DNA from: Naegleria gruberi
Lineage: Eukaryota
Assembly: GCA_000004985.1 (NCBI GenBank)
Contig: GG738858.1
Strand: one strand, 5' to 3'
Length of the DNA stretch: 64,000 nucleotides
The position numbers were made by a program, and so were the translations under genes. Positions 15,473 to 60,334 of this stretch are shown in pieces (the first letter of the stretch is position 1; each line of letters starts with the position of its first letter). The notes beneath the pieces were generated by a model, which was given only the letters and a program-made list of their open reading frames with translations, made no database searches and was not told where the DNA came from.

Positions 15473-17071
15473 ATGACTGAATTAACACCACAACAAATTA
15501 GTGTCAGCTTTGTTACTCAATATTACTTTATTTTGTCATCAAATACTAAAAACCTTTTCAAATTTTACAAGACCGAATCTGAGATGACTCATGAACACTC
15601 AACTGTTGTTAAGCAATTACCCGGAAATATTAATCCTAATGCAGCAGTTGGAGTTGATAATATTGAAAAGAAGATTTCAACCCTAGGCTATGAAGAATGT
15701 AAAGTCAAATTGACCTATGTTGACTCACAACGCTCATTGAATGGAGCTGTTTTTGTTTTTGTAGAAGGTGTTATGACAAGACAAGTTGACCAAAAGGAAA
15801 TGAATTTCACTCAAACTTTCCTTTTGGCTGAACAAGAAAATGGATACTTTGTTAGAAATGATTATCTTCGTTTCATTCCTGATACATCTAACATTCCAAC
15901 CACTGTTCAAGCTACTCAAAGCAATCCTCCACTTGCTGAATCATCAACCACTGCTTCTGTTTCCAGCACTTCAAGCAGTGAACATCACTCTAAATCACAA
16001 AATGGTCATCAATTATCCTTCTCTCTTAATCCATCCACTGTTAACATTGTTTCCTCTACTACCAACGGTTCTCACTCTCCAAGAAGTGAAGCCAGTTCAA
16101 CTGCTGCTACAGCTGGTGCCAGTTCTGTTTATGGTGGAGCAGAAGAAAATCAATTAGATGATGAAGCTGAGGAAGAAGAAATTACAGTAGTTGAAAAGCC
16201 ACAACAAAATCAACAACCAACTCAAGCTAAATCAACTACTAGTGTACCTGCTGAAAATAAGGAACCACACGGAACAATTTCTTATGCTGCTGCTGCTAGT
16301 GGTAGAGATTATAAGAATGAATCATCTGAACAAACTCAACCAAAACACAAGTCTGGAAAGAAACACAACAAGGAAAATAAGGAACACAAGACTGAACAAC
16401 ACAAGACCGAAAACAAGGAACACAAGACTACCACTGAACAACAACAACACAATAAGGAACACAAAGAACACAAGGAACACAAAGATCACAAAGAACACAA
16501 GGAACATAAGGACCACAAGAATGAACATCATAAGAATGAACACAAGAAACCAGCCACTGCTCCAGTAACTGGTGAACAAAAGCAAGTATCAGCTGAAAAG
16601 AAGGAAAAGACTTTCCGTGGAAAGGATCATCCACTTAATAAGCATGCTATCTATGTTCGTGATCTTCCTGTTGGCACTAAGGATAGTGATTTGAAGGAAG
16701 CTTTTGCAGCTTATGGTAGCATTATTGATATTAACAACAAGTCTGGTAAGGATCAATCATACAATAAGTATGCTTTGATTTTCTTTGAAAAACAACAAAG
16801 TGTTGATGAAGTATTGAAGAATCCAGCTGTCTCAATCAATAATCACCAATGTCCAATCACAAAATACCAAAGAAAGCCAAAACAATACCCAAGAACTCCA
16901 AACCAACCAACATCTACAACCACCACCAGTACACCAACAAAGACTGAGACCACTACTACTCCTGTCACCAATAATACTCAACAACCACGTAATAATAATA
17001 ACAATAATCGTGCTCCAAGACAAAAGTATACTCGTGCCACCAGTAATGAAAGTGAATCAGAAAAGAAGTAA
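15473..17071 (+). CDS. G3BP/Rasputin-like RNA-binding protein: N-terminal NTF2-like domain plus a C-terminal RRM, with a Lys/Glu/His-rich (KEHK)n repeat linker.
   Basis: NTF2-like FVTQYYFILSSNTKNLFKFY. RRM IYVRDLPVGTKDSDLKEAFAAYGSIIDI...YALIFFE. Intervening KEHKEHKEHKDHKEHK repeats. Confidence 0.65.
   Translation: MTELTPQQISVSFVTQYYFILSSNTKNLFKFYKTESEMTHEHSTVVKQLPGNINPNAAVGVDNIEKKISTLGYEECKVKLTYVDSQRSLNGAVFVFVEGVMTRQVDQKEMNFTQTFLLAEQENGYFVRNDYLRFIPDTSNIPTTVQATQSNPPLAESSTTASVSSTSSSEHHSKSQNGHQLSFSLNPSTVNIVSSTTNGSHSPRSEASSTAATAGASSVYGGAEENQLDDEAEEEEITVVEKPQQNQQPTQAKSTTSVPAENKEPHGTISYAAAASGRDYKNESSEQTQPKHKSGKKHNKENKEHKTEQHKTENKEHKTTTEQQQHNKEHKEHKEHKDHKEHKEHKDHKNEHHKNEHKKPATAPVTGEQKQVSAEKKEKTFRGKDHPLNKHAIYVRDLPVGTKDSDLKEAFAAYGSIIDINNKSGKDQSYNKYALIFFEKQQSVDEVLKNPAVSINNHQCPITKYQRKPKQYPRTPNQPTSTTTTSTPTKTETTTTPVTNNTQQPRNNNNNNRAPRQKYTRATSNESESEKK
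16345..16548 (+). repeat. Coding imperfect tandem repeat (aag gaa cac)n and variants, encoding His/Lys/Glu-rich KEHK units.
   Basis: Direct reading: ggaacacaaagaacacaaggaacacaaagatcacaaagaacacaaggaacataaggaccacaag. Confidence 0.6.
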
Positions 17072-17721: not shown

Positions 17722-18865
17722 TTAAAAAATATTCGAATATTTTATACAAGCTCCTAAATGTATGAGAGCAAGCTGTAGAATTGATGTAACTGAGTCAGGT
17801 GATATTTGAGTTGTTTCCACCATTTCATTAAAAATTTGAATAGCATCTCTTCCTCTTCCATTTTTACCCAATCCATGAATTAAGGTAGTCCAGAGAGAAA
17901 CATTAATCTTTGATCTACTTTGAGATTTGAGAGTATTAAATGTCAACAGTGCTTTTTCTATTTCTCCAAACTTGGTAAGCATTCTTAATAACACGTTCAT
18001 AGCATTTACATCATTATTCAATTTGTTATTGTTCAAAATATTATCGAACAAGTTCATTCCTATCGCTTTGTCGTTTGATCGTATACATGCAGAAAGAAGT
18101 AAAATATTAATGGATGGATTATCTTTGATTCCAATAATAGTATTCATTAGTATGAATACTTTATCAAAATTGTTTTTCTTCAGAGATGCTTTAATTAGAC
18201 GTCCATAATGACTTACATTTGGGTTAATATTAAACCTATCCTTCATAGAATTAAGCAACTCTTCTGTTGATTTAATATTTCCAGAACTTGCATAGGCATC
18301 CTAAATTTTTAGTATGGTTGCTTCATTAGGGTTTAAAAAGTATGAAATAGCTCAAAAGCTCTGTTTGTCTTATTGTTCTTTACAAAACCTGAAAGCATGT
18401 TATTCCAAGAGACAATATTCTTCTCTTTCATTTCGCAGAAAATAGAATAGGCAATATCTGGTTTTGAGTAATTACAATAAAATGATATTCACTCTCGAAC
18501 ACTTCTGGAAACCCACAAAGTTGTCTCAAAGTAAAATTCCATGTTATTTTTATCTTTCCCTTGTTTTTTTGTTTCCTTATCAATGATATCAAATCTTTAC
18601 AATACTCCAAAGGTTTCATATCATTGCTTTTAGAATTGATAGCTGATATCATTGAAACTACCAAAGAAATAGAAACATCGCCTTTTTGCTTTAGGATTTC
18701 ATACATTTCCAAACATTGTTCCTAATTATACCCTTCGGAAGGTTTGGGATGTTTTTTGAATTGATAAAGTGCTTGATCTAATTTTTTCTCTTCCACCAAT
18801 TTCCTAACTGTTGTGTTGTATAGTGAAGAAATAGATAATGTTGTTAGATTCCGAAAGCTAATCAT
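17722..18865 (-). pseudogene. Pentatricopeptide-repeat (PPR) protein gene with a disrupted reading frame: two in-frame TAG codons and two -1 shifts at homopolymer runs. Pseudogene or low-quality sequence. A possible degenerate DYW-like tail lies downstream in another frame (17390..17749).
   Basis: Clear PPR motifs in three successive frames: VSWNNMLSGFVKNNKTNRAFELFHTF, NPNEATILKI*DAYASSGNIKSTEELLNSM, VSLWTTLIHGLGKNGRGRDAIQIFNEMVETTQISPDSVT. The frames rejoin if t5 becomes t6 and a3 becomes a4. The TAG codons fall at GYN*EQCLEMYEIL and KI*DAY. Confidence 0.5.
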
Positions 18866-20457: not shown

Positions 20458-22446
20458 ATGATGTATCAGCCAACAAAAAGTAAATACGAAACATTGCACA
20501 ATCATGATGCAGTACAAGGAAACAGCAAACAATCATCAAACTTACTGCCATCACTTCAAAATTGCAATAAGAGCAAACAACCTTGTATTTGCTCAACTAC
20601 AACTTCAACTTCACAAATTCAATCAAATATTTACCTCCAACAACAACCTTCCCGATCTAATGGTTATTTCAGTAATATGGACCATATGATTAATAGTAAT
20701 TCATCCTATCAATTGTACAGACAACATTCCTTCTTAGATTCAGTCCTTACTTCCAACAATAACAATAATGGACTTCTCGAGCATGATAACACATTTCCAG
20801 ATAATTATTCTACCAACATTCCAGGTACTGAACAAATATTAATGATATTAATGTGCAATGGTATGACCCCTGAATTCGATCAATTTAATGGTAAATTCAA
20901 AACTCCAACCTACAAGTACAGTACAAATAGATTAAGAACAGAAAATTTAAACACCAACAGTAGCAATGGTACAACACCATCCTCTTCTTCTTCCACAACA
21001 CCATCCTCTAGTATATCCTCCCCTAATTGTAATGATAATCTTAAATCTCACCTTGAGAGCTCAAATACAATAACAATCATATCCAGAGAAGATATTTGCA
21101 ACGTGAATGCTACTTGTAATTCTCCACAAAGAGAATCAATCTCTAGTAACAATCAACAATATCTTTCAGAATCTTCAAATAAGCTTGATGAAAACTTAAC
21201 CCTTCCTCCTTCTCCATGCGTTTCAGACATTTCCGAATCGGAACAAGTTAAAATTCCAGAAGAAATAATTTTCCAACAAATGACCACCACCACTCCTACG
21301 ACAGACCAAAACCTCATTCCTCACAAGATTGAATCTGTTATCCATGGTTCAACCGAATCATGTCGTATTTCTGATAGTCATGGCGAAACTACCGATGAAT
21401 CCAGTGATGAAGAGGATGCTCCAAAAGCAAAATATCCAAAAAGAGAAGCAAGAGACCAACAAAAAACAATGAAACAAGACCTATCACTTGATTCTGCAGA
21501 ATCATCTGGTTTTGTTGTTAAACCTACCAGGACTTACAGTTTCAGAGATGCCACTATCTATATTCTTTCTCAAATTGGTAAACCAATGACCGCAGTTGAC
21601 ATTACTAAGAACATATTTGATAACAAGATGGTTAAAAGCGCAGGAAAAACTCCTGAAAGAACTGTTGCAGCCATGATTTATCAAGAAATGAAAAAGAAGA
21701 AAAACACCTCTGAGTTTGCTTTATTTGGCTCTGGTCTCTTTGGTTTAAGTGCTTGGAAGAGTGATGACCACACAAGCCAAGATACTGCCAGTGTTTCCAC
21801 TGACGCCTCCTTGTCATCAGTTGACAGAGCTGATAAGAAGAAAAAGGAAAAGAGGAAAAAGAGGAAACTTGCTACTAAACCAGAGAAGGAATCAGAGCTT
21901 TCAGAAGCAGAAAGTGATAATGGGATGTCCGTTTCAAAAAGAAAACCTAGAAAAATGCACAAACACAAACAAGCTTGTTCTTCTTCAAGTGAGGAAACCT
22001 CAATGACAGATTCTGAAGAAACAACAAGTAGTAAGAAGAGAAAACACAATGAATCAGAAGAAACAGCAATTATTATGACAGAGGAAGCTCTTTTCAAAAC
22101 CTACATTTCCAAACTCAAAAAGAAGGATCAAACAGAATCCGATGAAGATGAATGTTTTGTTTGTAAGAATGGTGGTGATTTGATTTGTTGTGATTATAGA
22201 GGATGTAGAAAGGTTTATCATGCTTCATGTGTTGGTCTTAAAGAAGTGCCTCAAGGAGATTGGATTTGTCCTCATCACTATTGTGCAGAATGTAAAAAGA
22301 AATCATTCAGGAGCAAATCTTCTAAGAAGTGTTTCAGTTGTCCATATAGTGTTTGTGGTGAACATGGTTCTCTATTGAAAGATAAGATAGATAACGACAA
22401 GTATGTTTGCACAAAATGTAAACCAATGTGTGAGAACATTAAATAA
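20458..22446 (+). CDS. Ser/Asn-rich nuclear protein with a HARE-HTH-like winged-helix segment and a C-terminal PHD-type zinc finger (662 aa).
   Basis: C-terminal CFVCKNGGDLICCDYRGCRKVYHASCVGL...WICPHHYCAECKK (C4HC3-like). Lys/Arg-rich NLS-like KKKKEKRKKRK. Segment YILSQIGKPMTAVDITKNIF...TPERTVAAMIYQEM resembles HARE-HTH. Confidence 0.6.
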   Translation: MMYQPTKSKYETLHNHDAVQGNSKQSSNLLPSLQNCNKSKQPCICSTTTSTSQIQSNIYLQQQPSRSNGYFSNMDHMINSNSSYQLYRQHSFLDSVLTSNNNNNGLLEHDNTFPDNYSTNIPGTEQILMILMCNGMTPEFDQFNGKFKTPTYKYSTNRLRTENLNTNSSNGTTPSSSSSTTPSSSISSPNCNDNLKSHLESSNTITIISREDICNVNATCNSPQRESISSNNQQYLSESSNKLDENLTLPPSPCVSDISESEQVKIPEEIIFQQMTTTTPTTDQNLIPHKIESVIHGSTESCRISDSHGETTDESSDEEDAPKAKYPKREARDQQKTMKQDLSLDSAESSGFVVKPTRTYSFRDATIYILSQIGKPMTAVDITKNIFDNKMVKSAGKTPERTVAAMIYQEMKKKKNTSEFALFGSGLFGLSAWKSDDHTSQDTASVSTDASLSSVDRADKKKKEKRKKRKLATKPEKESELSEAESDNGMSVSKRKPRKMHKHKQACSSSSEETSMTDSEETTSSKKRKHNESEETAIIMTEEALFKTYISKLKKKDQTESDEDECFVCKNGGDLICCDYRGCRKVYHASCVGLKEVPQGDWICPHHYCAECKKKSFRSKSSKKCFSCPYSVCGEHGSLLKDKIDNDKYVCTKCKPMCENIK

Positions 22447-22709
22447 TTTATTTCACTTTACAATTTCAAATTTGATCTTATTGTTATCTGATTGTTGTTG
22501 GAATATCCCACCAATGGACATTGAGAGTGATAACAAGTCAATCACGACTTTCTCTCAGCGCAAGGAAAGAACAGTACTTATGGTAGGTACCTTCATATTA
22601 CTGTGTGACAAATATCAACATTTACAGAGTTGTTCCAAACTCTTTGGACTAGCATTGCCAAAATCCGACCACCTTTCCAGTTTGACATTTAACAAACACA
22701 AAAAAAATT

Positions 22710-25174
22710 ATGAAGAAACTCTTTTCCCGTACACCTAGCTTTCGTCCAAAATTTTCCAGTAGAATTGATAGCCATGAACAAACTGATGCTCTTGTAGGAG
22801 ATGTTTATCCTGGTCCTCATACAACTAATGGTCAATCATCAATAGTTAATAGTGCACCACTTAGTTCAACTAGTACTAATTCTCTTAACTCCACCACAAT
22901 CAAATATATGTTATTTGGTGGAGAACTTGATGATTCAGATCCAAACAAATTACCACAATTTATTCTTGATACCATTGATTTCCTTCTCAAATATGGTCTA
23001 GAAGTTGAGGGTATCTTTAGAGTTTCAACTCATGAGACTAGAAAAGCCGATTTGATCAACAAGATGAATGATCGATATGCTAAAGAGAAGGATCCACACA
23101 AGAATTGTACATTTACATATAATGGTACAAATAGTGATGAAGTTTATTTTGCCTCTGCTGTTTTAAAACATTACTTTAGAAGTTTACCAACTCCACTCAT
23201 CAAACCACAATTTTATGAAACTTTCATGTTGACAACTAAATGTAGAGATCAGGAAAGAAAAGACATGTTAAAGAATGCTGTCAGATTGTTACCTGTTAAT
23301 TATTTTACTTTATTGAAAAAGATTTCAGACCTTTGTTTTGAAATTTCAAAACACAGCTCATCAAATAAGATGACATGCGAAAATTTATCCGTCTGTTGGA
23401 CTCCTAATTTATTAATGTATGTTATTCATATTATTCATTTATTATTCATTTAGTGATTCAATATGATCTCAATAATTGTAAATGAATTGATCATTCATGG
23501 ATCAATAACTCTCTTCAAATTGTTAAATCAAATAGTAATAATAATATGGATTTTATGGAACAAATGAAGAGAACAGGTGATGCTCAAAATGTAATTGCAG
23601 CTCTTTTCAGAGATTGTAAACAAATCTTTGAAGACGAAGAAGAGGTACCTGTTAGAAATGTAGAAAGAAAACGATCAGCAGCTCAAACTAAGAAATTCTT
23701 TTTGGGACTCACTTCACAAACTTCTCAAGAAGGAATGGCAGTTTACAATGGAGAAAAGAATGAAAATGGAGAGAAACATGGTCGTGGTATTTTAATGTTA
23801 CCAAATGGTTCAGTATTTGAAGGTGAATTTAGAAATAACAGTTATGCAAATGGTAAATTGGTTTATGTTACAGGTGAACAATACGAAGGAAAGTTTATTG
23901 ATGATTTGCCAGATGATGATAATGGTGTTTTCCGTTTTGCAAACATGTCAGTTTACACTGGTCAAGTAAAGAAAGGCCAATTGACTGGAGTTGGTGAATT
24001 GAAATACAAAGATGGTGGTATTTACAAAGGATCATTTGTAAATGGAAAGAGAGAAGGAAAAGGAAGTTTTGAATTTTATGAAGGAAATCAAAAAGTTAGA
24101 CATTACGATGGTGATTGGGAAAATGATTCAATGAGTGGTCAAGGTACCCTAATTAACACAACTATTCAACAAGTTTATACTGGTCAATTTAAGAATAATG
24201 TTTATCACGGACAAGGTGTTTTAATTTCTGGTTTAGAACAAAATAGATGTGAAGGTGAATTTGAGAATGGTGTTGTAAAGAATGGTTCTGGAAGTTTCAC
24301 TTCACTGAATAATGAATTTATTCAATTTGAAGGATCATGGAAGAATTGTCAATTCACAGGTAAAATTAAGATTTTCAATTTCCAAACCAGATCATTAGAA
24401 TTTGAAGGTGATATGATTGACTCTAGAAAGAATGGTTTCGGTAAATTAGTTTATTCAGATGGATCATATTATGAAGGTCAATTTAATAATGATGAAATGA
24501 CTGGTACAGGTTCATTTGTTGATTCTGATAGAGTTTACAATGGTCAATTCGTTAAAAGTTTATTCCATGGTAAAGGAAAGTTAAAGGCAACTTTCAAATC
24601 TAAGGATTATGTTTTTGAAGGAGAATTTAGAGAACACCAACCATATAATGGTGTTGGTTCAGTTGTTGTGAGTAGAAAAACTGGAGATTATTGGGATGGT
24701 GAATTTAAGAATGGAAAGTTTAGTGGAAAGGGTCGTCTCACATTTGAAGATGCTTCTGTTTATGAAGGTAATGTTAAAAATTCACTTTGTGAAGGAAAGG
24801 GTGTTGTCACCTATCCAGATGGATCAATTTATTCTGGATCATTCTCAAATGATGAAAGACATGGTCCTGGAACACTCACTATTAAGGATGGAGATGAGAA
24901 GGATTTCATGATTGTCTCAATTAATCAAGTTTGGGATCATGGTGTTTTAGTTTCACAAGAAGAACCTCAATCACCTGCTACATTGGATGAGAAGGAATCT
25001 CTAATCTTTTCATTCCTTGACTCATTAGAGAAGGAAGAACCTCTGAGATTTGGACCACTTGTTGGTAAAGAACAACGACCTTACATCTCAACTGCCTTAA
25101 CAAAAGCAAAGGAAAATCCAAATACTTCAATCTTGTATGAAATTCTCTATCAACTCTCAAAATGCAGGCGTTAA
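22710..25174 (+). CDS. RhoGAP domain protein fused to MORN repeats. Proposed exons 22710..23416 and 23536..25174, with a 119-nt intron 23417..23535 (GTATGT..AATAG, phase 2). Alternative model: two separate genes, 22710..23453 and 23546..25174.
   Basis: RhoGAP motifs GIFRVS (Arg finger), LKHYFRSLPTPL, NKMTCENLSVCWTPNLL. The spliced product continues in frame into TGDAQNVIAALFRDCKQIF, which matches the last RhoGAP helix. This is followed by more than 12 MORN-like repeats (YEGxFxNGKxHGxG). Confidence 0.6.
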
Positions 25175-25331: not shown

Positions 25332-26834
25332 ATGAATCATCAACATCTCTCAAAATTTGCTCAACCATCATCACTGATGAGAGTGTTCAGTGCTGGTACT
25401 AGAAAATGTAAAGGCTTTTCTCTTGTTCAATCATCTTCTTGGATTAATAATAGGAAATTCCAATCAAATAATATTAGACAATTTTCATCAACAAGTTTGA
25501 ATAGGAATGAAAAACAAGCAAGACAAGATTTGTATTCCTATGAAGTTTATGCTCTTCCGACAGAAAGAGATTATGATAGAATGATTCCGGATAGTGTTGA
25601 AGATAAACAAACTATTGTTGATTTGAATATGGACATTAGAAATGTATTAAATTATGTTCTTTTCTTGGCTTGTGATAAATATTCAGCAGAACGTTTAAAA
25701 GGATATCAAGAACATAAATTTAGTTTTGGAAAGGATAGACTTGTTAGTATTTTACAGTTAGCTCATGATGATTCAACTAGTCATTCAGGAAAAAAGCGAA
25801 GTTTAGAAAGTATTCTGGATAAGTCAACCACTGATTATATTGATATTATTGATGCTGTAAATTCTCACGTTCAATATATTAATAGAGAATTGAACAGACT
25901 TGATTTAAGTATTTCAGAGGAATACTATTCTGGTTCACCAAAAATTTCTGCAGAGGAATCAAATACTTCTCTTGCACAATGTGAAAAGGATATTGAAAAA
26001 TTGAATAGTGTTTTTAATAAGATGTATTCTATGGCTGATGTTGATCCATTGGATGATGATCTCATTGATAATGAAGCATATCACCCAATTGCATTGTATC
26101 TTAAGAATAAGATGAGAATAGTTTCTGTTAAAATGGACTTACAAAAGGACAAAGACAAGTTTAAGGATATTGAATCATTTCTCAAAATGGAACATGACAA
26201 GGATGAAGTTTTGGCTATGTGTAACAAAATTCAAGAAAGAGCTCTCCTCTATATGTCAACTCTACAATTGACAAAAGCCTATTCTGACATTACTCTATGC
26301 ACTCATATTACCAAACTAGTAGTTACAAAAGATGATACCAAGAAAGATATTTTAATTACTAGAGGATTAATTACATTACAATCATTAATTTACATGTACT
26401 CACTCTTGAAGGAATATGTTGTTATCATTAATAGAAAAGTTGATTTTGATTTTACTACAGAAAATCCAAAAGATTTACATCACTTTTTTGTTGAAAATTT
26501 CAAGGTTGTTCAACCAGTTATGTTTGACAATCAAATTGTTGAACTCGATTCTCAACGTTTAGCTTCTCTAGTAGATTTGAAAAATATTTCCCTTAAACTT
26601 GCTGTTTATGCTTCTAATCAACTTGAAATGCTGAAATATGATTTAGATGGTAAGAAGTTTGAATTTTTAGATAAATACCAGAAAGATTTAGACCTCACCA
26701 TGAAAGTTCTCAAATTCCAAGCAATTTATGTAGTCCTTAAAAAAGCTTTATCATTCACTCTTTGGGCAATTGCTTCTATTTGGCTCTTTAGATTTATTTC
26801 ACGAAAGCTTGAAGGAGAACCACTATTCAAATAA
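25332..26834 (+). CDS. Hypothetical 500-aa protein with a basic N-terminus (possible organellar presequence) and a C-terminal TM segment.
   Basis: Long ATG ORF with aaaaATG context. N-terminal MNHQHLSKFAQPSSLMRVFSAGTRK. C-terminal LSFTLWAIASIWLFRFI. No family recognised. Confidence 0.45.
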   Translation: MNHQHLSKFAQPSSLMRVFSAGTRKCKGFSLVQSSSWINNRKFQSNNIRQFSSTSLNRNEKQARQDLYSYEVYALPTERDYDRMIPDSVEDKQTIVDLNMDIRNVLNYVLFLACDKYSAERLKGYQEHKFSFGKDRLVSILQLAHDDSTSHSGKKRSLESILDKSTTDYIDIIDAVNSHVQYINRELNRLDLSISEEYYSGSPKISAEESNTSLAQCEKDIEKLNSVFNKMYSMADVDPLDDDLIDNEAYHPIALYLKNKMRIVSVKMDLQKDKDKFKDIESFLKMEHDKDEVLAMCNKIQERALLYMSTLQLTKAYSDITLCTHITKLVVTKDDTKKDILITRGLITLQSLIYMYSLLKEYVVIINRKVDFDFTTENPKDLHHFFVENFKVVQPVMFDNQIVELDSQRLASLVDLKNISLKLAVYASNQLEMLKYDLDGKKFEFLDKYQKDLDLTMKVLKFQAIYVVLKKALSFTLWAIASIWLFRFISRKLEGEPLFK

Positions 26835-26955
26835 ACAATTTTAAATTAATTTAAAATTGTAGATGGAAATAAGAACCTTATTGAAATTGTAAATTGAGAA
26901 TGGCGCCAAAATCATTTTAAAAAATTACGTTAATTGAGGAGAAGGAATTTATTTG

Positions 26956-27630
26956 ATGGCTGAACAATTATTGATGAATGCAGTTGAAAAGGGAGATCTC
27001 CAACAAGTTTCAACCCTTATTGTAGAAACAAATGCTGATGTGGATTTTATTGATGAGGGAAATAGAGGATTCACTCCATGTCATTTAGCTTCGGAAAATG
27101 GTCTGATGAGTGTTTTGGAATTAATATTGACTTATAATTGTGATCCGAACATTCCAAGTAATGAACAAGTTGGATATTTGACTCCTCTCCATATTGCAAC
27201 ATCGAAAGGATATAAGAAAATTGTTGAGACACTTTTGAATTATTATGCAGATCCTAACATGCAAGATATTAATGGTTATACTCCTCTGCACATTGCCTGT
27301 AGGAAGGGATTTTTGGAGATTGCCAAACTCCTTCTCGCAAAAGGAGCTGATGTTGAGATAAAAGATGAGCAAGGTAAAACACCTTATTATTGGGCACAAG
27401 AATACAAACATGATGAGATTTTACCATTCCTTGAAGTGTTTGCTTTCAGTTCAATGAAAGATCTTCCACCAATGCCTCTCGATCCTGCCACAGAAGCAAA
27501 AGCAAGAGAAAAGCTCGCTCTCTACGACTATACTAAACATCATGATTCTACCAAGGTTACAATTCATGTCATTAAGAAACAAGATACAACCAAAACGAAA
27601 AAGAAAACAACTAAGAAAAAGAAGAAATAA
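26956..27630 (+). CDS. Ankyrin-repeat protein (4 ANK repeats) with a Lys-rich C-terminal tail.
   Basis: ANK consensus repeats: GFTPCHLASENGLMSVLELIL, LTPLHIATSKGYKKIVETLL, GYTPLHIACRKGFLEIAKLLLAKGADVE, GKTPYYWA. Confidence 0.85.
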   Translation: MAEQLLMNAVEKGDLQQVSTLIVETNADVDFIDEGNRGFTPCHLASENGLMSVLELILTYNCDPNIPSNEQVGYLTPLHIATSKGYKKIVETLLNYYADPNMQDINGYTPLHIACRKGFLEIAKLLLAKGADVEIKDEQGKTPYYWAQEYKHDEILPFLEVFAFSSMKDLPPMPLDPATEAKAREKLALYDYTKHHDSTKVTIHVIKKQDTTKTKKKTTKKKKK

Positions 27631-27789: not shown

Positions 27790-29105
27790 ATGAAGAGAGT
27801 CTTATTGGTAGCTACCATTTTGGCTGTTCTCGCTGTTTCTGTCTTTGCCAAGACAATCACAGTCTCACTCAACAAGAAGGTTTTGGATCATTCTGATTCC
27901 AATGCTGTTGCTTGGTTCAACAATATCCGTATTGCTCAAATGACCAAGGTTGGTGCTGTTCCTAACAGACCATACTTGAAGACTGGTGCTTCTCCAGTTG
28001 TTCCATTGAACGATTTCTCTGATACTCAAGTATGTATTTTCATCAAGTATTGTTCTCTATAATTCCGTTATTTTTCCTGTTATTATTTTGTGTTAAAATT
28101 GATTTTTGGTGATCGATGTTAATTTATATTTGATTTGATGATGACAATTAATAACAGTACTATGGTTTTGTCAGTCTTGGTACTCCACAACAAAATTTCA
28201 AGGTTATTTTCGATACTGGTTCTTCCAACGTTTGGGTTCCATCTGAAAGTTGTTGGTCTATCACTTGTTTGTTGCACAACAGATACGATCACACCAAGTC
28301 CTCAACTTATGTTGCCAATGGTCAAAAGTTCAACATTACCTATGGTAGTGGTGGTGTTAACGGATTCTTATCTCAAGATGCTCTCTCTTGTGGTGGTATT
28401 CCAGTTAAGGGACAAGTTTTCGGTGAAGTTATGAGTGAACAAGGATTGGCTTTCTTGTTCGGTAAGTCTGACGGTATTGTTGGTATGGCTTTCCCATCTA
28501 TTTCTGTTGATGGTGTTACTCCAATGTTCAACAATATGATGAATCAAAAGTTGGTTGACAAGAATTTGTTCTCATTCTACTTGTCAAAGACTTCTGGTAG
28601 TACTGCAAGTGCTATGATTTTGGGTGGTATTGATACTAAGTATTATACTGGTCCATTGACCTATGTTCCATTGGCCAATAGAACTTATTGGGCTATTAGA
28701 ATCAACGATGTTGGTGTTGGTGGTGACTACAAGGGTGTCTGTCCTCCAGGTGGTTGTCTTGCTGCTGTTGATACTGGTACTTCCCTCATTGCTGGTCCAG
28801 CTTTGAAGATTGGTCCTATTATTGAATCTTTGAACATTGCTAAGGATTGTTCCAACATTGATTCTAATCCTGATGTTACTTTCAAGATTGGTGGTGTTGA
28901 ATATACTTTGAAGCCAAGAGACTATGTCTTGAAGATGACTCAATTCGGTCAATCTGAATGTATTGCCGGATTCATGCCATTGGCTTTGCCACCTCAATTT
29001 GGTGACTTCTGGATTCTTGGTGACGTTTTCATTTCCACTTATTACACTGTTTTTGACTATGATGGAAGCCGTGTTGGTTTCGCCAAGGCCAATCAAAACT
29101 TGTAA
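27790..29105 (+). CDS. Cathepsin D-like lysosomal aspartic protease (pepsin family A1), 395 aa. Exons 27790..28029 and 28158..29105; intron 28030..28157 (GTATGT..AACAG, phase 0).
   Basis: Signal peptide, then propeptide ending VVPLNDFSDTQ|YYGFVSLGTPQQNFKVIFDTGSSNVWVPS (first catalytic DTGS). Second catalytic site AAVDTGTSLIAGP. C-terminal GDVFISTYYTVFDYDGSRVGFAKA. Strong preferred-codon bias (ggt/gtt/aag/ttc). Confidence 0.9.
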
Positions 29106-29268: not shown

Positions 29269-30652
29269 ATGTGGAAAGGTTGGAATGATCTTGTGGGCAC
29301 AGTGACTGGTGGAAATCATCACACCTCTACGGAAAATAGTGAAGAAAGTGAGGCATCAAATGAAGCAACAAATAATTCCTCCTCCGTACCATCATCAGAA
29401 TATTACACCAAAGATGATTTTGAATTGATCAATAATAAGGAAGATGCAGAAATACATTTAGTTATTTTAATTGCAGGAATGGGTGCTAGAAAGGGACATT
29501 ACCTTTCCGATTCACTTCTTGTTCCTTTTGGTAAATGGTTTGATATTAACAAGTGTCAACAAGCAATGAAAGAAGAAGTTTCCAATTGTTTCAAATCTTA
29601 TGCAAATGATCAGGTTAAAAAGAGATCTCCTCATATTTTGATTCGATCAATTGATTATTGTTCAACTGTTAGAGAAGAAGGAGGTTATAATGAAAAATTG
29701 AATCTTATTTCAATGAAATCAGGTGTTCAATTCCTTCGTTTAATTGCCAATGAATCAATGATTGATGTTTTAATGTATAATAGTGAAAAAATCAAACAAC
29801 AAATGCAAACTGTAAGTGTCAGGAATTGTTGAAAATTATATTGATGAATTACATTACAGACTGCTGTCAAACAAATTAATGAAATATTTGAGGAATTTAA
29901 GGATGTTCCAATCAAATCAGTTTCATTTGTTGGACATTCACTTGGTTCTGTTCTTGCCTTTGATATTCTTTATCAACATCAAGAATCTGGAAATACTCTT
30001 TTAAAGATGAATCCTAATAGATGCTTTTTAGTTGGAAGTCCACTTGGTTTGTTTTTGACAATGTCAGTTCAAACAACCAACCAATATTTAGAAGCATTCC
30101 ATTGTGTTAATCCTCAAACAAATAAGAAACAATTATTGAAGGAAATTGATGTTTATCACTTGTACCATCCTTATGACCCTGTTGCTTATAGATTGGATCC
30201 TCATTTAGATTCTAGATTTGGAAAACATGATCCTCATAGCTGTATGTTGTTATTTCACATTCTGATTTGTTAATTATTCAATAGTGGAGTATTTTGCTAG
30301 AAGATTTAATCCAAATCATTATGTCAATCAATTCAATAACTATGTAAGTAACACTTTAAAATAGATTATTCGAAACAATTTTCATTAGAAAGCTAAGATA
30401 TTTGGAAATCAAGAAAAGATTGATGAAGAATTAAGTGAACTCCTTAAACAATATGAAATGTATGTTAATTTTGAGAATAATTTATCTAACTTTCTTTATA
30501 GTATTGATTATTGCCTTCCAGTAAACTCTGAGCTTGTTATTAATGAGTATTTGAGTGCTGGTGATGTACATTTGAAATATTGGAACAATACTGAAGTTAT
30601 TTGTTTCATTTTAGAGAAAATGAATTTGATTTCTGCCAACAAATCTGAATAA
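29269..30652 (+). CDS. DDHD-domain phospholipase A1-like protein (PA-PLA1/SEC23IP family). Four exons: 29269..29811, 29860..30244, 30288..30346, 30392..30652. Introns of 48, 43 and 45 nt.
   Basis: Lipase serine motif FVGHSLGSVLAFDIL in exon 2. DDHD-domain end IDYCLPVNSELVINEYLSAGDVHLKYW in exon 4. Donors GTAAGT/GTATGT/GTAAGT with acceptors ACAG/ATAG/TTAG, and phases are consistent. Confidence 0.65.
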
Positions 30653-30704: not shown

Positions 30705-32358
30705 CTACTTTTTTGATCGTTTTTCTGACATTACTCCCAATCTATAACCAAGAAGTAAAAGTAAAAAGTGTTCATCAGCTTTGATGTTATTCTTTGCATC
30801 AATAAAGAGCTGACGAATTTCATCATCTGTTCTACACATTTCAGCGAGCATTGAAGAGTAATGTTGAAGGGAACTATTAGTAAATGAGATACATTGCTCA
30901 TTTTGATTTTGAGGAGGTGGTGGAGGTGGTGGATTATTAGTTAAATTAGTTGTGGTTGGATGGGAGGTAGATTCTGAAAGGAATGAAGATTTGGAATTAA
31001 CATTAAAACCAAACGAAGATGGTAAATTTTGTGTTCTTTCTTCTTTTTCTGCGAACACTGGAAGGTGATTACTTGTCGGTTCATCTCCTCCCAAATTCGA
31101 AAGTGATGGAAGTACTAAAAATCCTGATTGACTATTATCAAAAAGAAAAGATCCTCCACTGTTGGTATTATCCAAAAAACTCTTTTTCAAAAATGAAAAA
31201 TTACTATTACTGGCATCGTTATTCATTCCATGATCTAACAGGGACGATTCATGCTCCTTTTCCACATGAGAATTATGCAACTCATAAATTGAAGGTATCG
31301 AATTTGAGTGGGCATTTGAGTGAAAATTCCAATTATTAAAACCTATTGAATTACTTCTCGAACTACAACTTTGTTCCATTGAATTACTATTGGATTGTTG
31401 TGTATGATGTTTAACTTCATTGAGGTTGTTGAGGTTATTGTTATTGAGATTTTCACTTATTACCTCAACGTTCTTAACACTAACGGTTTCAGGTGTTTCT
31501 TCCTTAACAGGAGAAGTTTCAATATTAGATGTAGTGCTCTTCTTCTTTTTCTTTCCAGTTTTCTGAGTTGTTTCTTGAGGTGTTGGTTCTGTTACCTCTT
31601 TTGTTTCTTTTATTTCTGGTGTTTCTTTTGGAGGAGGCAACAGTTCATCTCCTTTTTTAATTTGTAATCTGTACTTTTGAAGGTGACTCTTAATATGATC
31701 AGTCTGTTAGAAAAATTGATTTGTTAAATTGTTAAATTAACTCTTTTGAAATACATACCGTTACACGAGAAACACCCATTAAATTCTTGATTGCTTTAGG
31801 GGCAGCATTATCAAGTCCCAACACAGAAACAGCTTCCACAAATGATTGATGTAATTCATTGGTCCATGATAATCTTTGTTTTTTGTTTTTAGCCTGAAGA
31901 TCTTCAGAATCACCCGATGAAACAGAAGGAGAAACTGTTGCTTCAACTGTTCTCTTTTTCTTATCATCGGATGATGATAATTGATCATAAGAGGAGTTGG
32001 GTAGTGATTTTGATTTTCTCTTTGTTTTAGATTCCTTCTTATTTGACTTTGTAGAGTTATTGTTATTTATATTATTACTCACAATACTATTGGTACTAGT
32101 GCTTGTTTGTTGTTGTTGTTGTTGAAGGCTACTGGAAGAGGAGGTAGTACTCATTGATGACGAGGCTCCTCCATATGAATCAGAGTTATTATTATTCATC
32201 ATATTCATATTATTATTATTATTATTATTGAGTACATTATTAGTAGCTACCACTCCTACAACTCCTTGGTGATGCTGATGATGAGCTGACTGATGTTGGT
32301 GCTGCACTTGTTGTGAGGAGATTGTTTGTTGCGGAACAAGCAGAGGTGGTTTTTGCAT
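30705..32358 (-). CDS. Myb-like SHAQKYF/GARP-class DNA-binding protein with Gln/Asn/Ser-rich flanks. Exons 32358..31759 and 31703..30705 (minus strand); 55-nt intron 31704..31758.
   Basis: Myb repeat RLSWTNELHQSFVEAVSVLGLDNAAPKAIKNLMGVSRVT, joined across GTATGT..AACAG to TDHIKSHLQKYRLQIKK (the SHLQKYR signature). The upstream frame is closed by TGA; 32358 is the first ATG. Confidence 0.65.
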
Positions 32359-32686: not shown

Positions 32687-34598
32687 TTACTTTTGGTTGA
32701 GAATAAAGGTCCTAAAAGGATGAATTTGAGAATCTGTAGTATTGGAAGAAGGAAAATCCACACTCTGTTGTTCAAACCTATCAGGATTGAATTGATTTGA
32801 TTGTTTTCCCCAAACTCTAATATCTGAATTCAATAAATTAAAAAGAATGAGAAGTTTTGAACTCTTTGGAATATTGTAATGACTTCTACTAGTATTTGGA
32901 AGAGGTTTTCCACTTCCAACTCTACAACTTTCCAAAGCTTCACCTGCATATGTAAATACTGGTGCTGCCAACCTGAATGTTTCTTGCACAACTCTGTTGC
33001 AATATTTAAATTTGTATTTAAAAGTTCTGAATAGGACAGTCTTGTCCTCTCTTTGAGAGAAATTCTCGTCAACTTCTTGTTGGACTAATTGTTGATACTC
33101 AGGATTTAGAGATAAGTAATGAAGAGCTCGTGTCACATATAATAAAACATGTTCTTGTCCGTCACAAAATGCTCTACTATTAGCTGGCAGTTGTAATTTA
33201 CAAATGGATGGGATTGGAAGAGGTAGATTAATAGTTGATTCTTTCTTGTTTTTAGATGATCTCTTGAACATGGGTAATAGTGTTCTCTTAGGTTGAAGTA
33301 GTGAAATACTCCTACTAAGGCAGGATTTCAATAATTTCATTAAAATATTCTTTTGTTGATTGGATGATTCAAAACTAGTCAAATTCGATGTGGGACTGAT
33401 TTTTGTGGAATTATCTGGGGACTCTGGCTTGCATACTGCCTCTGTAATATTAGAAAGCAATGAAGAGAGGTAATCATCAATATTAACGGACACAAATTTT
33501 TGTGAATGTCTTTGTTCTTCGAGAACAAGACTCTCCATGCTCGATGTTACCTCTTCATTGAATAACTCCATCCAGGATGTAGTAAGTTGAGTTAAATTTT
33601 CATTCAAAATTTTCTCAAAGTTGTTTGGATCCAAAGTATTTAAAATATCTTCTTCATCCAATGATTCTAATCCATTATGAAATTTGGTAGAGATTAGATT
33701 CATATTAGTGACATGCCTATCCCTACAGTCACTAAAATTATGTTTGAGTTTTGGATTATTAACAATCTCAAAATATGTATTGGAATCACTATTGCGCTTG
33801 TTAATAAAATTGTGCTGAAATATTAACATACCTAGTTATTAAATAATTATCAAGAAATAAACTAAGTCTCCACATACTACAACCAAACATTTGAGATTTC
33901 AATATTTGATATTTTGGAAAGAGGAACACATTGTCCAATTTTTGTTGATAGTCCCAAGCAAATTTACAATTCTTGCAGGGATAATATCCCACACAATCAT
34001 TCAGCAATTTTGTCATCCAAATCTTGCACCAATAACAAGAGCAAGATTGATAACTTGGATCTTCCATTGAAAGGAATGTAGCCATATTATTTTGTCTTCT
34101 TTTGTACTTATTTTGCAAGCTGTTAAGAAAAGAAGTAGAACTCATAGCTCGTGTTAAACTTGGCTTATTGGCATCATTATTGTAGATAACAACACCTTCA
34201 TCAGGATTAAATTGATAACTATGTTTTTGATATTTAAAAAGAGGTGAATCATCTTCTTCGTTACTACTTGTACTACTACTATCAGATGATGAGGTCGGAG
34301 ATGATGGATGGTAATTATTTGGTTGAACATTTGCAGGATCATAATTTTGGGAAGGAATATTATTGGGAGTTGGAGGTATTTGATTATTACTAGCATCTTC
34401 GTTATGATACAAATCAATATTGGAAATATTTGAAAAATAGGGCCTGTTGAAAAATCGTAAGGTAAAATAGTGGAAATGTGAATAGCCTGGCAGATGCGTA
34501 GCTTTACTAATAGTTCTCACATGTTTTCCATAAATATAAACAATTATAAGAGCCAATATGTTCAATAGAACAAAACAGGCTGCAACAAAAACCAACAT
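32687..34598 (-). CDS. Cytochrome P450-like protein with an N-terminal membrane anchor. Exons 34598..33878 and 33831..32687; 46-nt intron 33832..33877 (phase 1). The heme-binding Cys loop was not identifiable.
   Basis: N-terminal anchor MLVFVAACFVLLNILALIIVYIYG. J/K-helix region LSLNPEYQQLVQQEVD. ExxR motif VVQETFRL. PERF motif FNPDRF. After IHPF the expected FGxGxRxCxG is replaced by RTFILNQK and then a stop. The splice (GTATGT..AACTAG) joins ...SQMFGC|S|MLIFQHNF. Confidence 0.55.
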
Positions 34599-38132: not shown

Positions 38133-38830
38133 ATGAGTATTCTCGAATATAATGGAGCCGGTATTGTCGCCATGACTGGCAAGAATTGTGTGGCCATCGC
38201 TGCCGATACAAGATATGGTATTCGTCAACAAACTGTAGGAACTGATATGCAAAAGATTTTCAAGATTCACGATAAATTGTTTATTGGATTGAACGGATTG
38301 GCTACTGATGTTCAAACTGTTAATGAAAAACTGAAATTTAGAATGAACATGTACAATCTTAAGGAAGAAAGAGACATCAAACCAAGTAGTTTTGCCAATC
38401 TCATGTCTAATATTCTCTATGAAAAGAGGTATGTAATTTTCCCGATCAAAATATTCTTACAATCTCATCGTCATCATATTGATAACAATAATACTATTAA
38501 TACAATAGATTTGGACCTTGGTTTATTGAACCAGTTATTGCAGGACTTGAAGGACCAGAAAATAAGCCATTTATTTGCGCTCAAGATTTGATCGGAGCTC
38601 CTTGTTTTACTGATAACTTTGTTGTTTCTGGTACTTGTAGTGAAGCTTTATACGGAATGTGTGAATCTTTGTATAAACCAGATATGGAACCAGAAGATCT
38701 CTTTGAAGTTATTTCACAATGTCTTTTGGCTGCTGTTGATAGAGATTGTATTTCTGGTTGGGGTGCTGTTGTTCATGTAATCACTCCAGATAGTATCACA
38801 ACCAAGAGACTGAAGGTCAGACAAGATTAA
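38133..38830 (+). CDS. PSMB3: Proteasome subunit beta type-3 (PSMB3/Pup3). Exons 38133..38428 and 38509..38830; 80-nt intron (GTATGT..AATAG, phase 2).
   Basis: Near-collinear with PSMB3: [30 protein letters not shown]...GLATDVQTV...LYEKR|[13 protein letters not shown]...[48 protein letters not shown]...[15 protein letters not shown]. Confidence 0.9.
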
Positions 38831-60293: not shown

Positions 60294-60334
60294 TTTTTTT
60301 TAATTATTCTTCTTACAAACGATGTATTACGTAA

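What the first reader, a model, noticed from the sequence alone, without database searches (positions are those of the whole stretch)
22710..25174. Likely RhoGAP-MORN repeat fusion protein joined by a 119-nt intron
The RhoGAP domain lacks its last helix at the apparent stop. Splicing GTATGT (23417) to AATAG (23535) continues in frame into TGDAQNVIAALFRDCKQIF, a good match for that missing helix. After that come more than 12 MORN repeats. In the unspliced model, the putative MORN gene's ATG sits 96 nt after the RhoGAP stop with no room for a promoter. MORN repeats bind phospholipids and membranes, so the fusion would target a Rho/Rac GAP to the membrane.
Basis: partly seen in the sequence, partly recalled or inferred. 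Interest (0 to 1): 0.5.

Follow-up and report, generated by a model that had tools for sequence, protein, structure and literature searches.

The report
Split RhoGAP-MORN gene in Naegleria gruberi
Two neighbouring reading frames in this Naegleria gruberi window are one gene, joined by removing a 119-base intron, that encodes a Rho-GTPase off-switch fused to a long MORN repeat array; this corrects an incomplete public gene model but is otherwise an ordinary member of a protein family already annotated in related amoebae.

Summary
No RNA evidence was available.

Removing 23417..23535 (GTATGT...AATAG, 119 nt, 22% GC) joins ORF 22710..23453 to ORF 23546..25174 in frame. The product is 781 aa.

- **Orthologues.** The product is colinear from end to end with N. 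fowleri FDP41_004539 (762 aa, 65% identity). It is also colinear with a second relative (756 aa, 52%). Both are encoded by uninterrupted ORFs, and neither alignment has a gap at the junction.
- **Missing part of the domain.** Exon 2 supplies about 35 residues of the structural RhoGAP domain, including the last helix.
- **Variation between haplotypes.** Two near-identical metagenomic haplotypes concentrate their differences in the 119 nt, including a 1-nt indel. The splice sites are intact. The exons carry only synonymous or in-frame changes.
- **Local introns.** Six other introns in the window, confirmed by Pfam domains running across their junctions, use the same GTATGT/GTAAGT...AG signals.
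- **Source and annotation.** The window is N. gruberi. The only public model found here, XP_002679255.1, is a partial 357-aa MORN-only fragment.
The "no room for a promoter" argument is weak. So is treating MORN repeats as membrane binders.
- **Intron age.** The intron appears specific to the N. gruberi lineage.

Interest is low to moderate. This is a gene-model correction in an uncharacterised, apparently mostly heterolobosean RhoGAP-MORN family.

The parts
22710..23416 (+). Exon 1 (707 nt, ends in phase 2). It encodes residues 1-235 plus two bases of codon 236: a conserved N-terminal motif MKKLFSRTPSFRPKF, a Ser/Thr-rich linker, and RhoGAP helices up to ...MTCENLSVCWTPNLL.
   Evidence: Pfam RhoGAP 82-235, 108.8 bits. 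The start and N-terminal motif align with N. fowleri, P0002 and Willaertia. There are no substitutions and one in-frame 6-nt indel relative to haplotype L005.
23019..23021 (+). AGA codon of Arg104 in EGIFRVST, the predicted catalytic arginine finger.
   Evidence: It aligns with the Arg of EGLYRVSGN in ARHGAP5 (2ee4). It is invariant in the three orthologues, as are Lys153 and Asn225. The role of this residue is established knowledge for RhoGAPs (Arg85 of p50RhoGAP).
23417..23535 (+). Spliceosomal (GT-AG) intron, 119 nt, 21.8% GC. It contains in-frame stops TAG TGA at 23451-23456 and an 11-nt tandem duplication at 23429-23450.
   Evidence: It is absent from the uninterrupted ORFs of N. fowleri, P0002, P0126 and P0154. 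It carries 4 substitutions and a 1-nt deletion relative to L005, and a further substitution in L007. Substitution density in the intron versus the exons gives Fisher p = 7e-4.
23417..23422 (+). 5' splice site GTATGT.
   Evidence: The same hexamer, or GTAAGT, starts six other introns in the window that are confirmed by Pfam domains running across the junction. It is unchanged in L005 and L007.
23531..23535 (+). 3' splice site AATAG.
   Evidence: It resembles other acceptors in the window (AAATAG, CAATAG, TAACAG). It is unchanged in L005 and L007. It is the only acceptor that restores the residues DFMEQMK, which are conserved in the orthologues.
23536..25174 (+). Exon 2 (1639 nt including the TAA stop at 25172-25174). 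It encodes the last base of codon 236 and residues 237-781.
   Evidence: There are two substitutions relative to L005, both synonymous third-position changes (23650 CCT>CCA, 23884 TAC>TAT).
23573..23629 (+). TGDAQNVIAALFRDCKQIF (residues 249-267), the last helix of the RhoGAP structural domain.
   Evidence: It aligns with TKIHQSVVETFIQQCQFFF at the C-terminal end of the ARHGAP5 GAP-domain structure 2ee4. The equivalent helix of the N. fowleri orthologue (236-253) is modelled at pLDDT 85-92. That model's RhoGAP part superposes on whole solved RhoGAP domains (3msx_B, TM 0.90, 2.2 A, 205 columns).
23738..24904 (+). MORN repeat array of about 16 repeats of 22-27 residues (residues 304-692).
   Evidence: Pfam MORN 144-149 bits. 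Repeat list. PDB sequence hits are MORN1, FAP266 and RSPH1. The orthologue's model is a continuous beta-hairpin array at pLDDT 85-95, and Foldseek's top hits are TbMORN1 and TgMORN1.
24971..25171 (+). Conserved C-terminal region (residues about 715-781) with no Pfam match. It is predicted to be helical and ends in the motif ENPNTSILYEILYQLSK.
   Evidence: No Pfam hit (protein 6). It is conserved in N. fowleri, P0002, Willaertia and P0126. It forms four helices at 701-761 in the orthologue's model, at pLDDT about 55-80.

Best explanation
The region 22710..25174 is one protein-coding gene of Naegleria gruberi with two exons (22710..23416 and 23536..25174), separated by a 119-nt U2-type GT-AG intron.

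**What the mRNA encodes (shown).** The spliced mRNA encodes a 781-aa protein. In order it has a short conserved basic N-terminal motif, a low-complexity linker, a complete RhoGAP domain (residues about 65-270), a linker of about 35 residues, about 16 MORN repeats (304-692) and a small conserved helical C-terminal region. The last roughly 35 residues of the RhoGAP domain, including its final helix, are encoded in exon 2. These points are shown by sequence and comparative evidence.

**How it most likely works (inferred).** The RhoGAP domain keeps the arginine finger (Arg104) and the conserved Lys153 and Asn225. It therefore probably accelerates GTP hydrolysis on Rho/Rac-type GTPases and switches them off locally. 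The MORN array together with the C-terminal helices probably provides localisation or self-association. The best-studied MORN-only proteins dimerise and bind proteins, so docking onto a protein or cytoskeletal partner or oligomerisation is at least as likely as direct lipid binding.

**Origin of the intron (inferred).** The intron is specific to the N. gruberi lineage and was probably gained after the split from the N. fowleri lineage.
For: 1. The splice arithmetic is exact, and retaining the interval gives immediate stops.
2. The spliced protein aligns end to end with N. fowleri FDP41_004539 (762 aa, 64.9% identity) and P0002 (756 aa, 51.7%), with no gap at the junction. Both are encoded by single uninterrupted ORFs. 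So are the more distant RhoGAP-MORN proteins P0126 and P0154. The two window pieces abut with exactly the split codon missing.
3. PDB RhoGAP domains (2ee4, 2ee5, 5irc, 3fk2, 1f7c) align through the junction to ...CKQIFEDEE. The orthologue's AlphaFold model has a confident RhoGAP fold at residues 50-257 that includes the post-junction helices. It superposes on whole solved RhoGAP domains at TM 0.83-0.90.
4. Haplotypes L005 and L007 are more than 99% identical to the window. They have 4-5 substitutions and a 1-nt deletion inside the 119 nt. Exon 1 has no substitutions and one 6-nt in-frame indel. Exon 2 has 2 synonymous changes. The splice sites are intact. Fisher p = 7e-4. The read-through tail of ORF1 is frameshifted between haplotypes.
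5. Six other introns in the window are confirmed by single Pfam domain hits crossing the junction (RGS, DUF676, proteasome, EMP70, Sugar_tr, Myb). All start with GTATGT or GTAAGT, end in AG, and have 17-31% GC.
6. The 119-nt length is ordinary for N. gruberi (average intron 203 bp, 1.7 exons per gene, 33% GC; PMC8296547).
Against: There is no transcript evidence. The spliced junction and a nearby exon probe gave no hit in JGI metagenome contigs. No same-species protein crossing the junction was found.

Exon 2 happens to have an in-frame ATG 10 nt after the acceptor, so an independent MORN-only product cannot be formally excluded.

GAP activity, substrate and localisation are inferred from conserved residues only. 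The structure model is of the N. fowleri orthologue, because the tools did not accept the spliced sequence.
Confidence: 0.9

Rival explanations
1. Gene fission: in N. gruberi the ancestral gene has been split into two independently expressed genes. One would be a C-terminally truncated RhoGAP (247 aa). The other would be a MORN protein (542 aa) starting at the ATG at 23546.
For: ORF2 has its own in-frame ATG at 23546, where the relatives have His or Glu. Short spacers between genes on the same strand occur in Naegleria (61 nt in N. fowleri), so 92 nt does not exclude a promoter. Prokaryote-style gene callers report the two ORFs separately.
Against: The truncated RhoGAP would lack about 35 residues of the fold, including the final helix. 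Yet exon 1 shows no substitutions, against 7 in 382 noncoding bases (p = 6e-4), which indicates a constrained, functional domain. The spacer has perfect splice signals in the right phase, preserved in three haplotypes. The ORF1 tail is not conserved between haplotypes. The first residues of ORF2 are RhoGAP helix sequence, not a separate protein's N-terminus.
Confidence: 0.04
2. Disrupted gene or pseudogene: the 119 nt is a recent insertion that breaks the reading frame, and the GT...AG ends are fortuitous.
For: The interval is absent from all relatives examined. It is AT-rich and has an internal tandem duplication.
Against: Both exons are under visible constraint between haplotypes: only synonymous substitutions and one in-frame indel. 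The boundaries restore the orthologous protein without gain or loss of a residue. The signals match the introns confirmed in this window. A fortuitous insertion with exact 5' and 3' splice consensus in the right phase is much less likely than an intron.
Confidence: 0.03
3. The gene is spliced as proposed, but intron retention or an internal start is used in a regulated way. This would also give a MORN-only protein, or a truncated GAP, under some conditions such as the amoeba-to-flagellate transition.
For: There is an in-frame ATG at 23546 just after the acceptor. The intron is longer than most confirmed introns in the window (119 nt against 39-80 nt for most). Otherwise there is nothing direct.
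Against: No data bear on it. Retention introduces stops after 12 codons. The ATG is not conserved in the relatives, which have no intron at this position and therefore cannot use such a mechanism.
Confidence: 0.08

Closest known systems
Naegleria fowleri FDP41_004539 (UniProt name 'Rho-GAP domain-containing protein', 762 aa; P0001)
   Same: It is a full-length colinear orthologue: 65% identity over 99% of the length, with the same order of N-terminal motif, RhoGAP, linker (KKFFLGLxSQT), about 16 MORN repeats and C-terminal helical region.
   Different: It is encoded by one uninterrupted ORF with no intron. Its upstream neighbour differs (a NADPH oxidase-like gene rather than a HARE-HTH/PHD gene). 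It is annotated only as hypothetical and has not been studied experimentally. No paper in the library mentions its identifier.
Naegleria gruberi XP_002679255.1 / EFC46511.1 'predicted protein, partial' (357 aa; P0124)
   Same: It is the same locus. It is 100% identical to window ORF2 residues 66-224 and 276-473.
   Different: The public model is a MORN-only fragment, open at both ends. It lacks the RhoGAP exon, the linker and the C-terminal region. It also splices out 24218..24370 (51 aa, two MORN repeats), which is conserved coding sequence in the orthologues.
Willaertia magna KAL9657289.1 (610 aa; P0134) and unnamed relatives P0126 (834 aa) and P0154 (1196 aa)
   Same: They have the same architecture, with RhoGAP followed by MORN repeats (Pfam). 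Willaertia and P0126 also share the C-terminal NP(N/E)T...E(L/I)L motif, and Willaertia shares the N-terminus MKKLFSR.
   Different: Identity is 29-37% and the number of MORN repeats differs. Willaertia has a 42-nt intron about 17 codons upstream of the N. gruberi position. P0126 and P0154 are intronless. It is unresolved whether they are orthologues or paralogues.
Classical RhoGAP domains (p50RhoGAP/ARHGAP1, p190/ARHGAP5 and ARHGAP35, ARHGAP20)
   Same: The fold is the same and the catalytic Arg finger, Lys and Asn are conserved. The orthologue's model superposes at TM 0.83-0.90.
   Different: Sequence identity is only 22-27%. None of these animal proteins carries MORN repeats.
MORN1 (Trypanosoma, Toxoplasma, Plasmodium), axonemal MORN proteins (RSPH1, FAP266) and alsin/ALS2 or Dbl-RhoGEF-MORN proteins
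   Same: They have MORN beta-hairpin arrays. These are the best PDB matches to the array here. MORN repeats combined with a Rho regulator are known for RhoGEFs, in metazoan, Acanthamoeba and Thecamonas Dbl proteins (PMC5499878).
   Different: Here the partner is a GAP, not a GEF. MORN1 proteins are MORN-only. There is no evidence that this protein is axonemal or that it dimerises.

Membership tests
RhoGAP domain (Pfam PF00620) | Profile match above the curated threshold | tested here: met
   107-109 bits against a cut-off of 24.5; 25 PDB RhoGAP chains at E <= 1e-3.
RhoGAP domain (Pfam PF00620) | Catalytic arginine finger in the GxxR motif, plus the conserved Lys and Asn (Arg85/Lys122/Asn194 of p50RhoGAP) | tested here: met
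   Arg104 (EGIFRVS), Lys153 (LKHYFRSLPTPL) and Asn225 (MTCENLSV) align with the ARHGAP5 equivalents. All three are invariant in the three orthologues.
RhoGAP domain (Pfam PF00620) | Complete all-helical structural domain including the last helix | tested here: met
   It is met only in the spliced product. PDB alignments run to residue about 270. The orthologue's model at 50-257 has pLDDT 81-95 and TM 0.90 to 3msx_B. It is not met by ORF1 alone.
RhoGAP domain (Pfam PF00620) | Stimulates GTP hydrolysis by a Rho-family GTPase | not testable with these tools
   This needs a biochemical assay.
MORN repeat proteins (Pfam PF02493) | Profile match above threshold and tandem units of about 23 residues with the YxGxW...GxG pattern | tested here: met
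   144-149 bits against a cut-off of 22.5; 13 strict plus 3 degenerate repeats.
MORN repeat proteins (Pfam PF02493) | Elongated beta-hairpin array | tested here: met
   Shown for the N. fowleri orthologue's model (strands 285-690, pLDDT 85-95). Foldseek's best hits are the MORN1 crystal structures.
MORN repeat proteins (Pfam PF02493) | Membrane or lipid binding (the assumed function) | not testable with these tools
   This is not a defining property. TbMORN1 showed no membrane binding (PMC7725318).
Spliceosomal GT-AG intron | GT...AG boundaries whose removal restores one open frame, while retention breaks it | tested here: met
Spliceosomal GT-AG intron | Signals and composition like confirmed introns of the same genome | tested here: met
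   GTATGT/GTAAGT...AG and 17-31% GC in six introns validated by Pfam domains in the window, against GTATGT...AATAG and 22% GC here.
Spliceosomal GT-AG intron | The spliced product is colinear with homologues, with no insertion or deletion at the junction | tested here: met
Spliceosomal GT-AG intron | Noncoding pattern of variation (indels not in multiples of three, higher substitution density) | tested here: met
   The numbers are small: 5-6 events in 119 nt.
Spliceosomal GT-AG intron | Junction observed in RNA | tested here: inconclusive
   There was no hit to the junction or to an exon probe in metagenome contigs. No RNA-seq tool was available.

The most novel reading that the evidence does not exclude
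The 119-nt intron is a recent, lineage-specific intron gain inside a conserved catalytic domain. It is present and already polymorphic in N. gruberi. It is absent at this position from N. fowleri, an outgroup relative, Willaertia and two more distant family members.

The protein would define a mostly heterolobosean class of Rho GAPs. In this class a 16-repeat MORN array plus a C-terminal helical module acts as a dimerising or cytoskeleton-docking ruler rather than a lipid anchor.
Probability: 0.25. Interest if true: 0.4.

Novelty: new member of a known kind. Interest (0 to 1): 0.27.

Why it matters
**Annotation.** This result repairs a gene model in the reference genome of a model amoeboflagellate. 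Instead of a 357-aa "partial predicted protein" made only of MORN repeats, the locus encodes a 781-aa RhoGAP-MORN protein. Catalogues of Rho regulators in Naegleria, which are used to discuss the evolution of amoeboid motility, would miss or misclassify it.

**Method.** It shows that the Pfam RhoGAP boundary is not a safe test for truncation, because the model stops about 35 residues before the structural domain ends.

**Biology.** It points to an uncharacterised RhoGAP-MORN family, with named members so far in Naegleria and Willaertia. It also gives a clean example of an intron that is present in one Naegleria lineage and absent in its relatives.

None of this changes current understanding of Rho signalling or splicing.

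Tried and rejected
- **Exact look-up.** The spliced and unspliced proteins are not in the 15-billion-sequence collection.
- **Word-index homology searches.** Searches with the RhoGAP region and with a junction-spanning query found only a metagenomic copy of ORF1 and weak hits. These searches are lossy, because they missed P0001 and P0002. Absence of a same-species fused model is therefore only "not found".
- **Junction in public DNA.** The spliced junction (42-mer) and an exon-2 probe (36-mer) gave no hits in JGI metagenome contigs.
- **Spliced protein in other tools.** I used the N. fowleri orthologue instead.
- **First structure model.** The first AlphaFold run, with a 4-row alignment, gave an unusable RhoGAP part (pLDDT below 50). 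A 9-row alignment fixed this.
- **Bacterial promoter and terminator scan.** It is irrelevant for a eukaryote and uninformative.
- **Other copies of the intron.** A search of the window for introner-like elements gave only chance matches of 10-21 nt.
- **Alternative splice sites.** The second GT at 23421 has no compatible acceptor. The acceptor at 23453 shifts the frame. In-frame acceptors further downstream (23571, 23610 and beyond) would delete residues conserved in the orthologues.
- **Literature.** No paper gave a Naegleria splice-site consensus or mentions the gene identifiers.
- **Pfam on the C-terminal 84 residues.** No match.
Full report
**What is in the sequence.** The window is AT-rich (32.9% GC). 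Between 22710 and 25174 on the + strand there are two ORFs.
- ORF1, 22710..23453, is 247 aa.
- ORF2, 23546..25174, is 542 aa.
- The interval 23417..23535 begins with GTATGT and ends with AATAG. It is 119 nt and 21.8% GC, against 33% in the flanks.
- Exon 1 would end in phase 2. Removing the interval gives a 2346-nt open frame (781 aa) that reads ...CWTPNLL-I-NNNMDFMEQMKRTGDAQNVIAALFRDCKQIF... across the junction.
- Retaining the interval gives 12 unrelated codons and then TAG TGA.

The only slip is that the gap from the ORF1 stop to the ORF2 ATG is 92 nt rather than 96.

**Domains.** Pfam finds RhoGAP (PF00620) in ORF1 and MORN (PF02493) in ORF2, and both in the spliced product.
- The Pfam RhoGAP model ends at about ...PNLL. 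It matches positions 1-144 of 148 in ORF1 alone and 1-147 in the spliced protein.
- Alignment to solved structures is informative. Against PDB chains, the alignments to ARHGAP5 (2ee4, 2ee5), p190A (5irc, 3fk2) and 1f7c run straight through the junction. They reach ...CKQIFEDEE at the C-terminal end of the crystallised domains. About 35 residues of the structural domain, including its last helix, are therefore encoded downstream of the 119 nt.
- The arginine finger (Arg104 in EGIFRVS), Lys153 and Asn225 are aligned and conserved.
- The MORN array has 13 strict and 3 degenerate repeats between residues 304 and 692.

**Comparative evidence for the splice.** The best homologue of the spliced protein is N. 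fowleri FDP41_004539 (P0001, 762 aa), with 63% BLAST identity over 99% of the query and 64.9% in the multiple alignment. Next is P0002 (756 aa, from a metagenome contig), at 50% over 99% and 51.7% in the alignment. Both carry RhoGAP and MORN.
- The three-way alignment has no gap at the junction.
- Both relatives are encoded by one uninterrupted ORF: L001 6001-8289 is 763 codons and L004 1502-3772 is 757 codons.
- When the two window pieces are aligned separately, they abut with exactly the split codon missing.
- An exhaustive profile-free search with P0001, followed by a local RhoGAP HMM and Pfam, found three further RhoGAP-then-MORN proteins. These are Willaertia magna KAL9657289.1 (P0134), P0126 and P0154.
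- P0126 and P0154 are also single ORFs.
- The Willaertia gene has one 42-nt intron (GTAAGT...TTTTAG), about 17 codons upstream of the N. gruberi position.

In every relative, RhoGAP helix F is followed directly by the sequence that N. gruberi encodes in exon 2.

- With a 9-row alignment the model has mean pLDDT 79.8.
- Residues 50-257 form a confident helical domain with pLDDT 81-95. This includes helices 229-234 and 236-253, which correspond to the part encoded in exon 2.
- Residues 285-690 form a continuous beta-hairpin array.
- Residues 701-761 form four helices at lower confidence.
- Foldseek superposes the N-terminal domain on whole RhoGAP domains (ArhGAP20 3msx_B, TM 0.90, 2.2 A, 205 columns; also p190, p50RhoGAP and others). 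It superposes the array on the MORN1 crystal structures and on axonemal MORN proteins.

**Evidence from variation within the species.** A metagenomic contig, L005 (2312 nt), is more than 99% identical to window 21777..24083. Gene callers split it into the same two ORFs.
- Within the gene, the differences are distributed as follows.
  - Intron: a 1-nt deletion (23436) and four substitutions (23519, 23520, 23525, 23529).
  - Exon 1: one 6-nt in-frame insertion and no substitutions.
  - Exon 2: two substitutions, both synonymous third-position changes (23650 and 23884).
- A second contig from the same run, L007, adds another intronic substitution at 23453.
- The splice sites are unchanged in all three haplotypes.
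- Substitution density in the intron against the exons gives Fisher p = 7e-4. Exon 1 against the noncoding flank plus the intron gives p = 6e-4.
- The read-through tail of ORF1 differs between haplotypes because of the frameshift, so it is not coding.

**Local splice signals.** I scanned the window for GT[AT]NGT...AG intervals that bridge long open frames. I then tested candidates by asking whether one Pfam domain hit runs across the junction. Six do:

| Interval | Strand | Length (nt) | Signals | Pfam domain |
|---|---|---|---|---|
| 12349..12390 | + | 42 | GTAAGT..AAATAG | RGS |
| 29812..29859 | + | 48 | GTAAGT..TTACAG | DUF676 |
| 38429..38508 | + | 80 | GTATGT..CAATAG | proteasome |
| 39380..39577 | + | 198 | GTATGT..TTCAAG | EMP70 |
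| 43846..43808 | - | 39 | GTAAGT..TTTTAG | Sugar_tr |
| 31758..31704 | - | 55 | GTATGT..TAACAG | Myb |

The proposed intron fits this pattern. Its length is ordinary for N. gruberi, where the average intron is 203 bp (PMC8296547).

**Source organism and state of annotation.** P0124 is XP_002679255.1 / EFC46511.1, "predicted protein, partial [Naegleria gruberi]". It is 100% identical to window ORF2 residues 66-224 and 276-473. The window is therefore N. gruberi, which also fits the published 33% GC.
- This public model is a MORN-only fragment, open at both ends.
- It also splices out 24218..24370 (153 nt, in frame). That stretch encodes two MORN repeats that are conserved and uninterrupted in the orthologues.
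- I found no N. gruberi model containing the RhoGAP part. The 90% cluster of the ORF1-like protein holds only metagenome and Logan members, and the exact sequences are absent from the collection.
- The word-index searches are lossy, so this absence is "not found" rather than proven.

**Mechanism.**
- Shown: one gene, two exons, and a complete RhoGAP domain only after splicing.
- Inferred from conserved catalytic residues: the protein is an active GAP for Rho/Rac-type GTPases. These are abundant in Naegleria (PMC5499878; PMC9928731).
- The role of the MORN array is open. TbMORN1 showed no membrane or liposome binding, and MORN1 proteins dimerise tail to tail and bind proteins through a groove (PMC7725318).
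- I therefore regard scaffold or partner docking, or oligomerisation through the MORN array and the conserved C-terminal helices, as at least as likely as lipid binding.

**Intron history.** The pairwise identities are window-Nf 64.9%, window-P0002 51.7% and Nf-P0002 53.4%. These place P0002 outside the N. gruberi plus N. fowleri pair.
- The intron is absent at this position from N. fowleri, P0002, Willaertia, P0126 and P0154. One gain in the N. gruberi lineage is therefore more parsimonious than several losses. This is an inference.
- No other copy of the intron sequence exists in the window.

**Rivals.**
- Gene fission is contradicted by the constraint on exon 1, the missing part of the fold, the preserved in-phase splice signals and the non-conserved ORF1 tail.
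- A pseudogene created by insertion is contradicted by the same constraint and by the exact restoration of the orthologous sequence.
- Regulated intron retention cannot be tested here.

**Verdict.** It is a useful correction of an incomplete public model and a new member of an annotated but unstudied RhoGAP-MORN family. It is not a new kind of system.

Noticed in passing
window 23741..24964, especially 24218..24370: The public N. gruberi model XP_002679255.1 (357 aa, partial) covers only this span. It removes 24218..24370 as an intron (153 nt, GT..AG, in frame, 30% GC). That stretch encodes two MORN repeats that are conserved and uninterrupted in the N. fowleri and P0002 orthologues. The predicted intron therefore looks spurious.
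   Followed up: partly
window + 12349..12390, 29812..29859, 38429..38508, 39380..39577; - 43846..43808, 31758..31704: These are six other short introns (39-198 nt, GTATGT or GTAAGT ... AG, 17-31% GC). Removing each lets a single Pfam domain hit run across the junction: RGS, DUF676/DDHD, proteasome beta subunit, EMP70, sugar transporter and Myb/SHAQKYF respectively. Further candidates were not confirmed because the domain hit does not span the junction: 28030..28157 (aspartic protease), 53916..53868 (GH5) and 33831..33789.
   Followed up: partly
L006 3001-4875 (Willaertia magna JBEGDK010000021.1): The Willaertia RhoGAP-MORN relative has a 42-nt intron (GTAAGT...TTTTAG) between ...LHQKH and NLMSPENISV. 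That is about 17 codons upstream of the N. gruberi intron position, so the two introns are not homologous. It also has a Ser/Thr-rich insert of about 35 residues inside the RhoGAP domain.
   Followed up: partly
L005 and L007 (ENA/Logan run ERR1078381) against window 21777..24083: An environmental metagenome contains at least two haplotypes more than 99% identical to this N. gruberi locus. They differ from the window by a 6-nt in-frame insertion after 22900 (adding Asn-Asn/Lys in the Ser/Thr-rich linker) and by intronic and intergenic changes.
   Followed up: yes
window 22710..22760 and 24971..25171: Two short regions without a Pfam match are conserved across Naegleria and Willaertia family members. 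One is the basic N-terminal motif M(K/P)xx(F)SRxxSFRPKF. The other is a helical C-terminal region ending in ENPNTxI(L/F)(Y/F)E(I/L)LYQLS. Their functions are unknown.
   Followed up: no
window 20458..22446, 15473..17071, 17722..18258 (-), 26953..27630, 25332..26834: The neighbouring genes look unrelated to the finding. They are a HARE-HTH plus PHD-finger protein directly upstream, an NTF2+RRM (G3BP-like) protein, a PPR protein, an ankyrin-repeat ORF that starts without ATG (probably a downstream exon), and a 500-aa ORF with no Pfam match. The upstream neighbour is not syntenic with N. fowleri, where a NADPH-oxidase-like gene precedes the orthologue.
   Followed up: partly
window 60293..60335 (- strand): Two long minus-strand ORFs (58302..60293 and 60335..61471) are separated by only 41 nt. 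They could be one gene with a short intron or two very closely spaced genes. I did not examine this.
   Followed up: no
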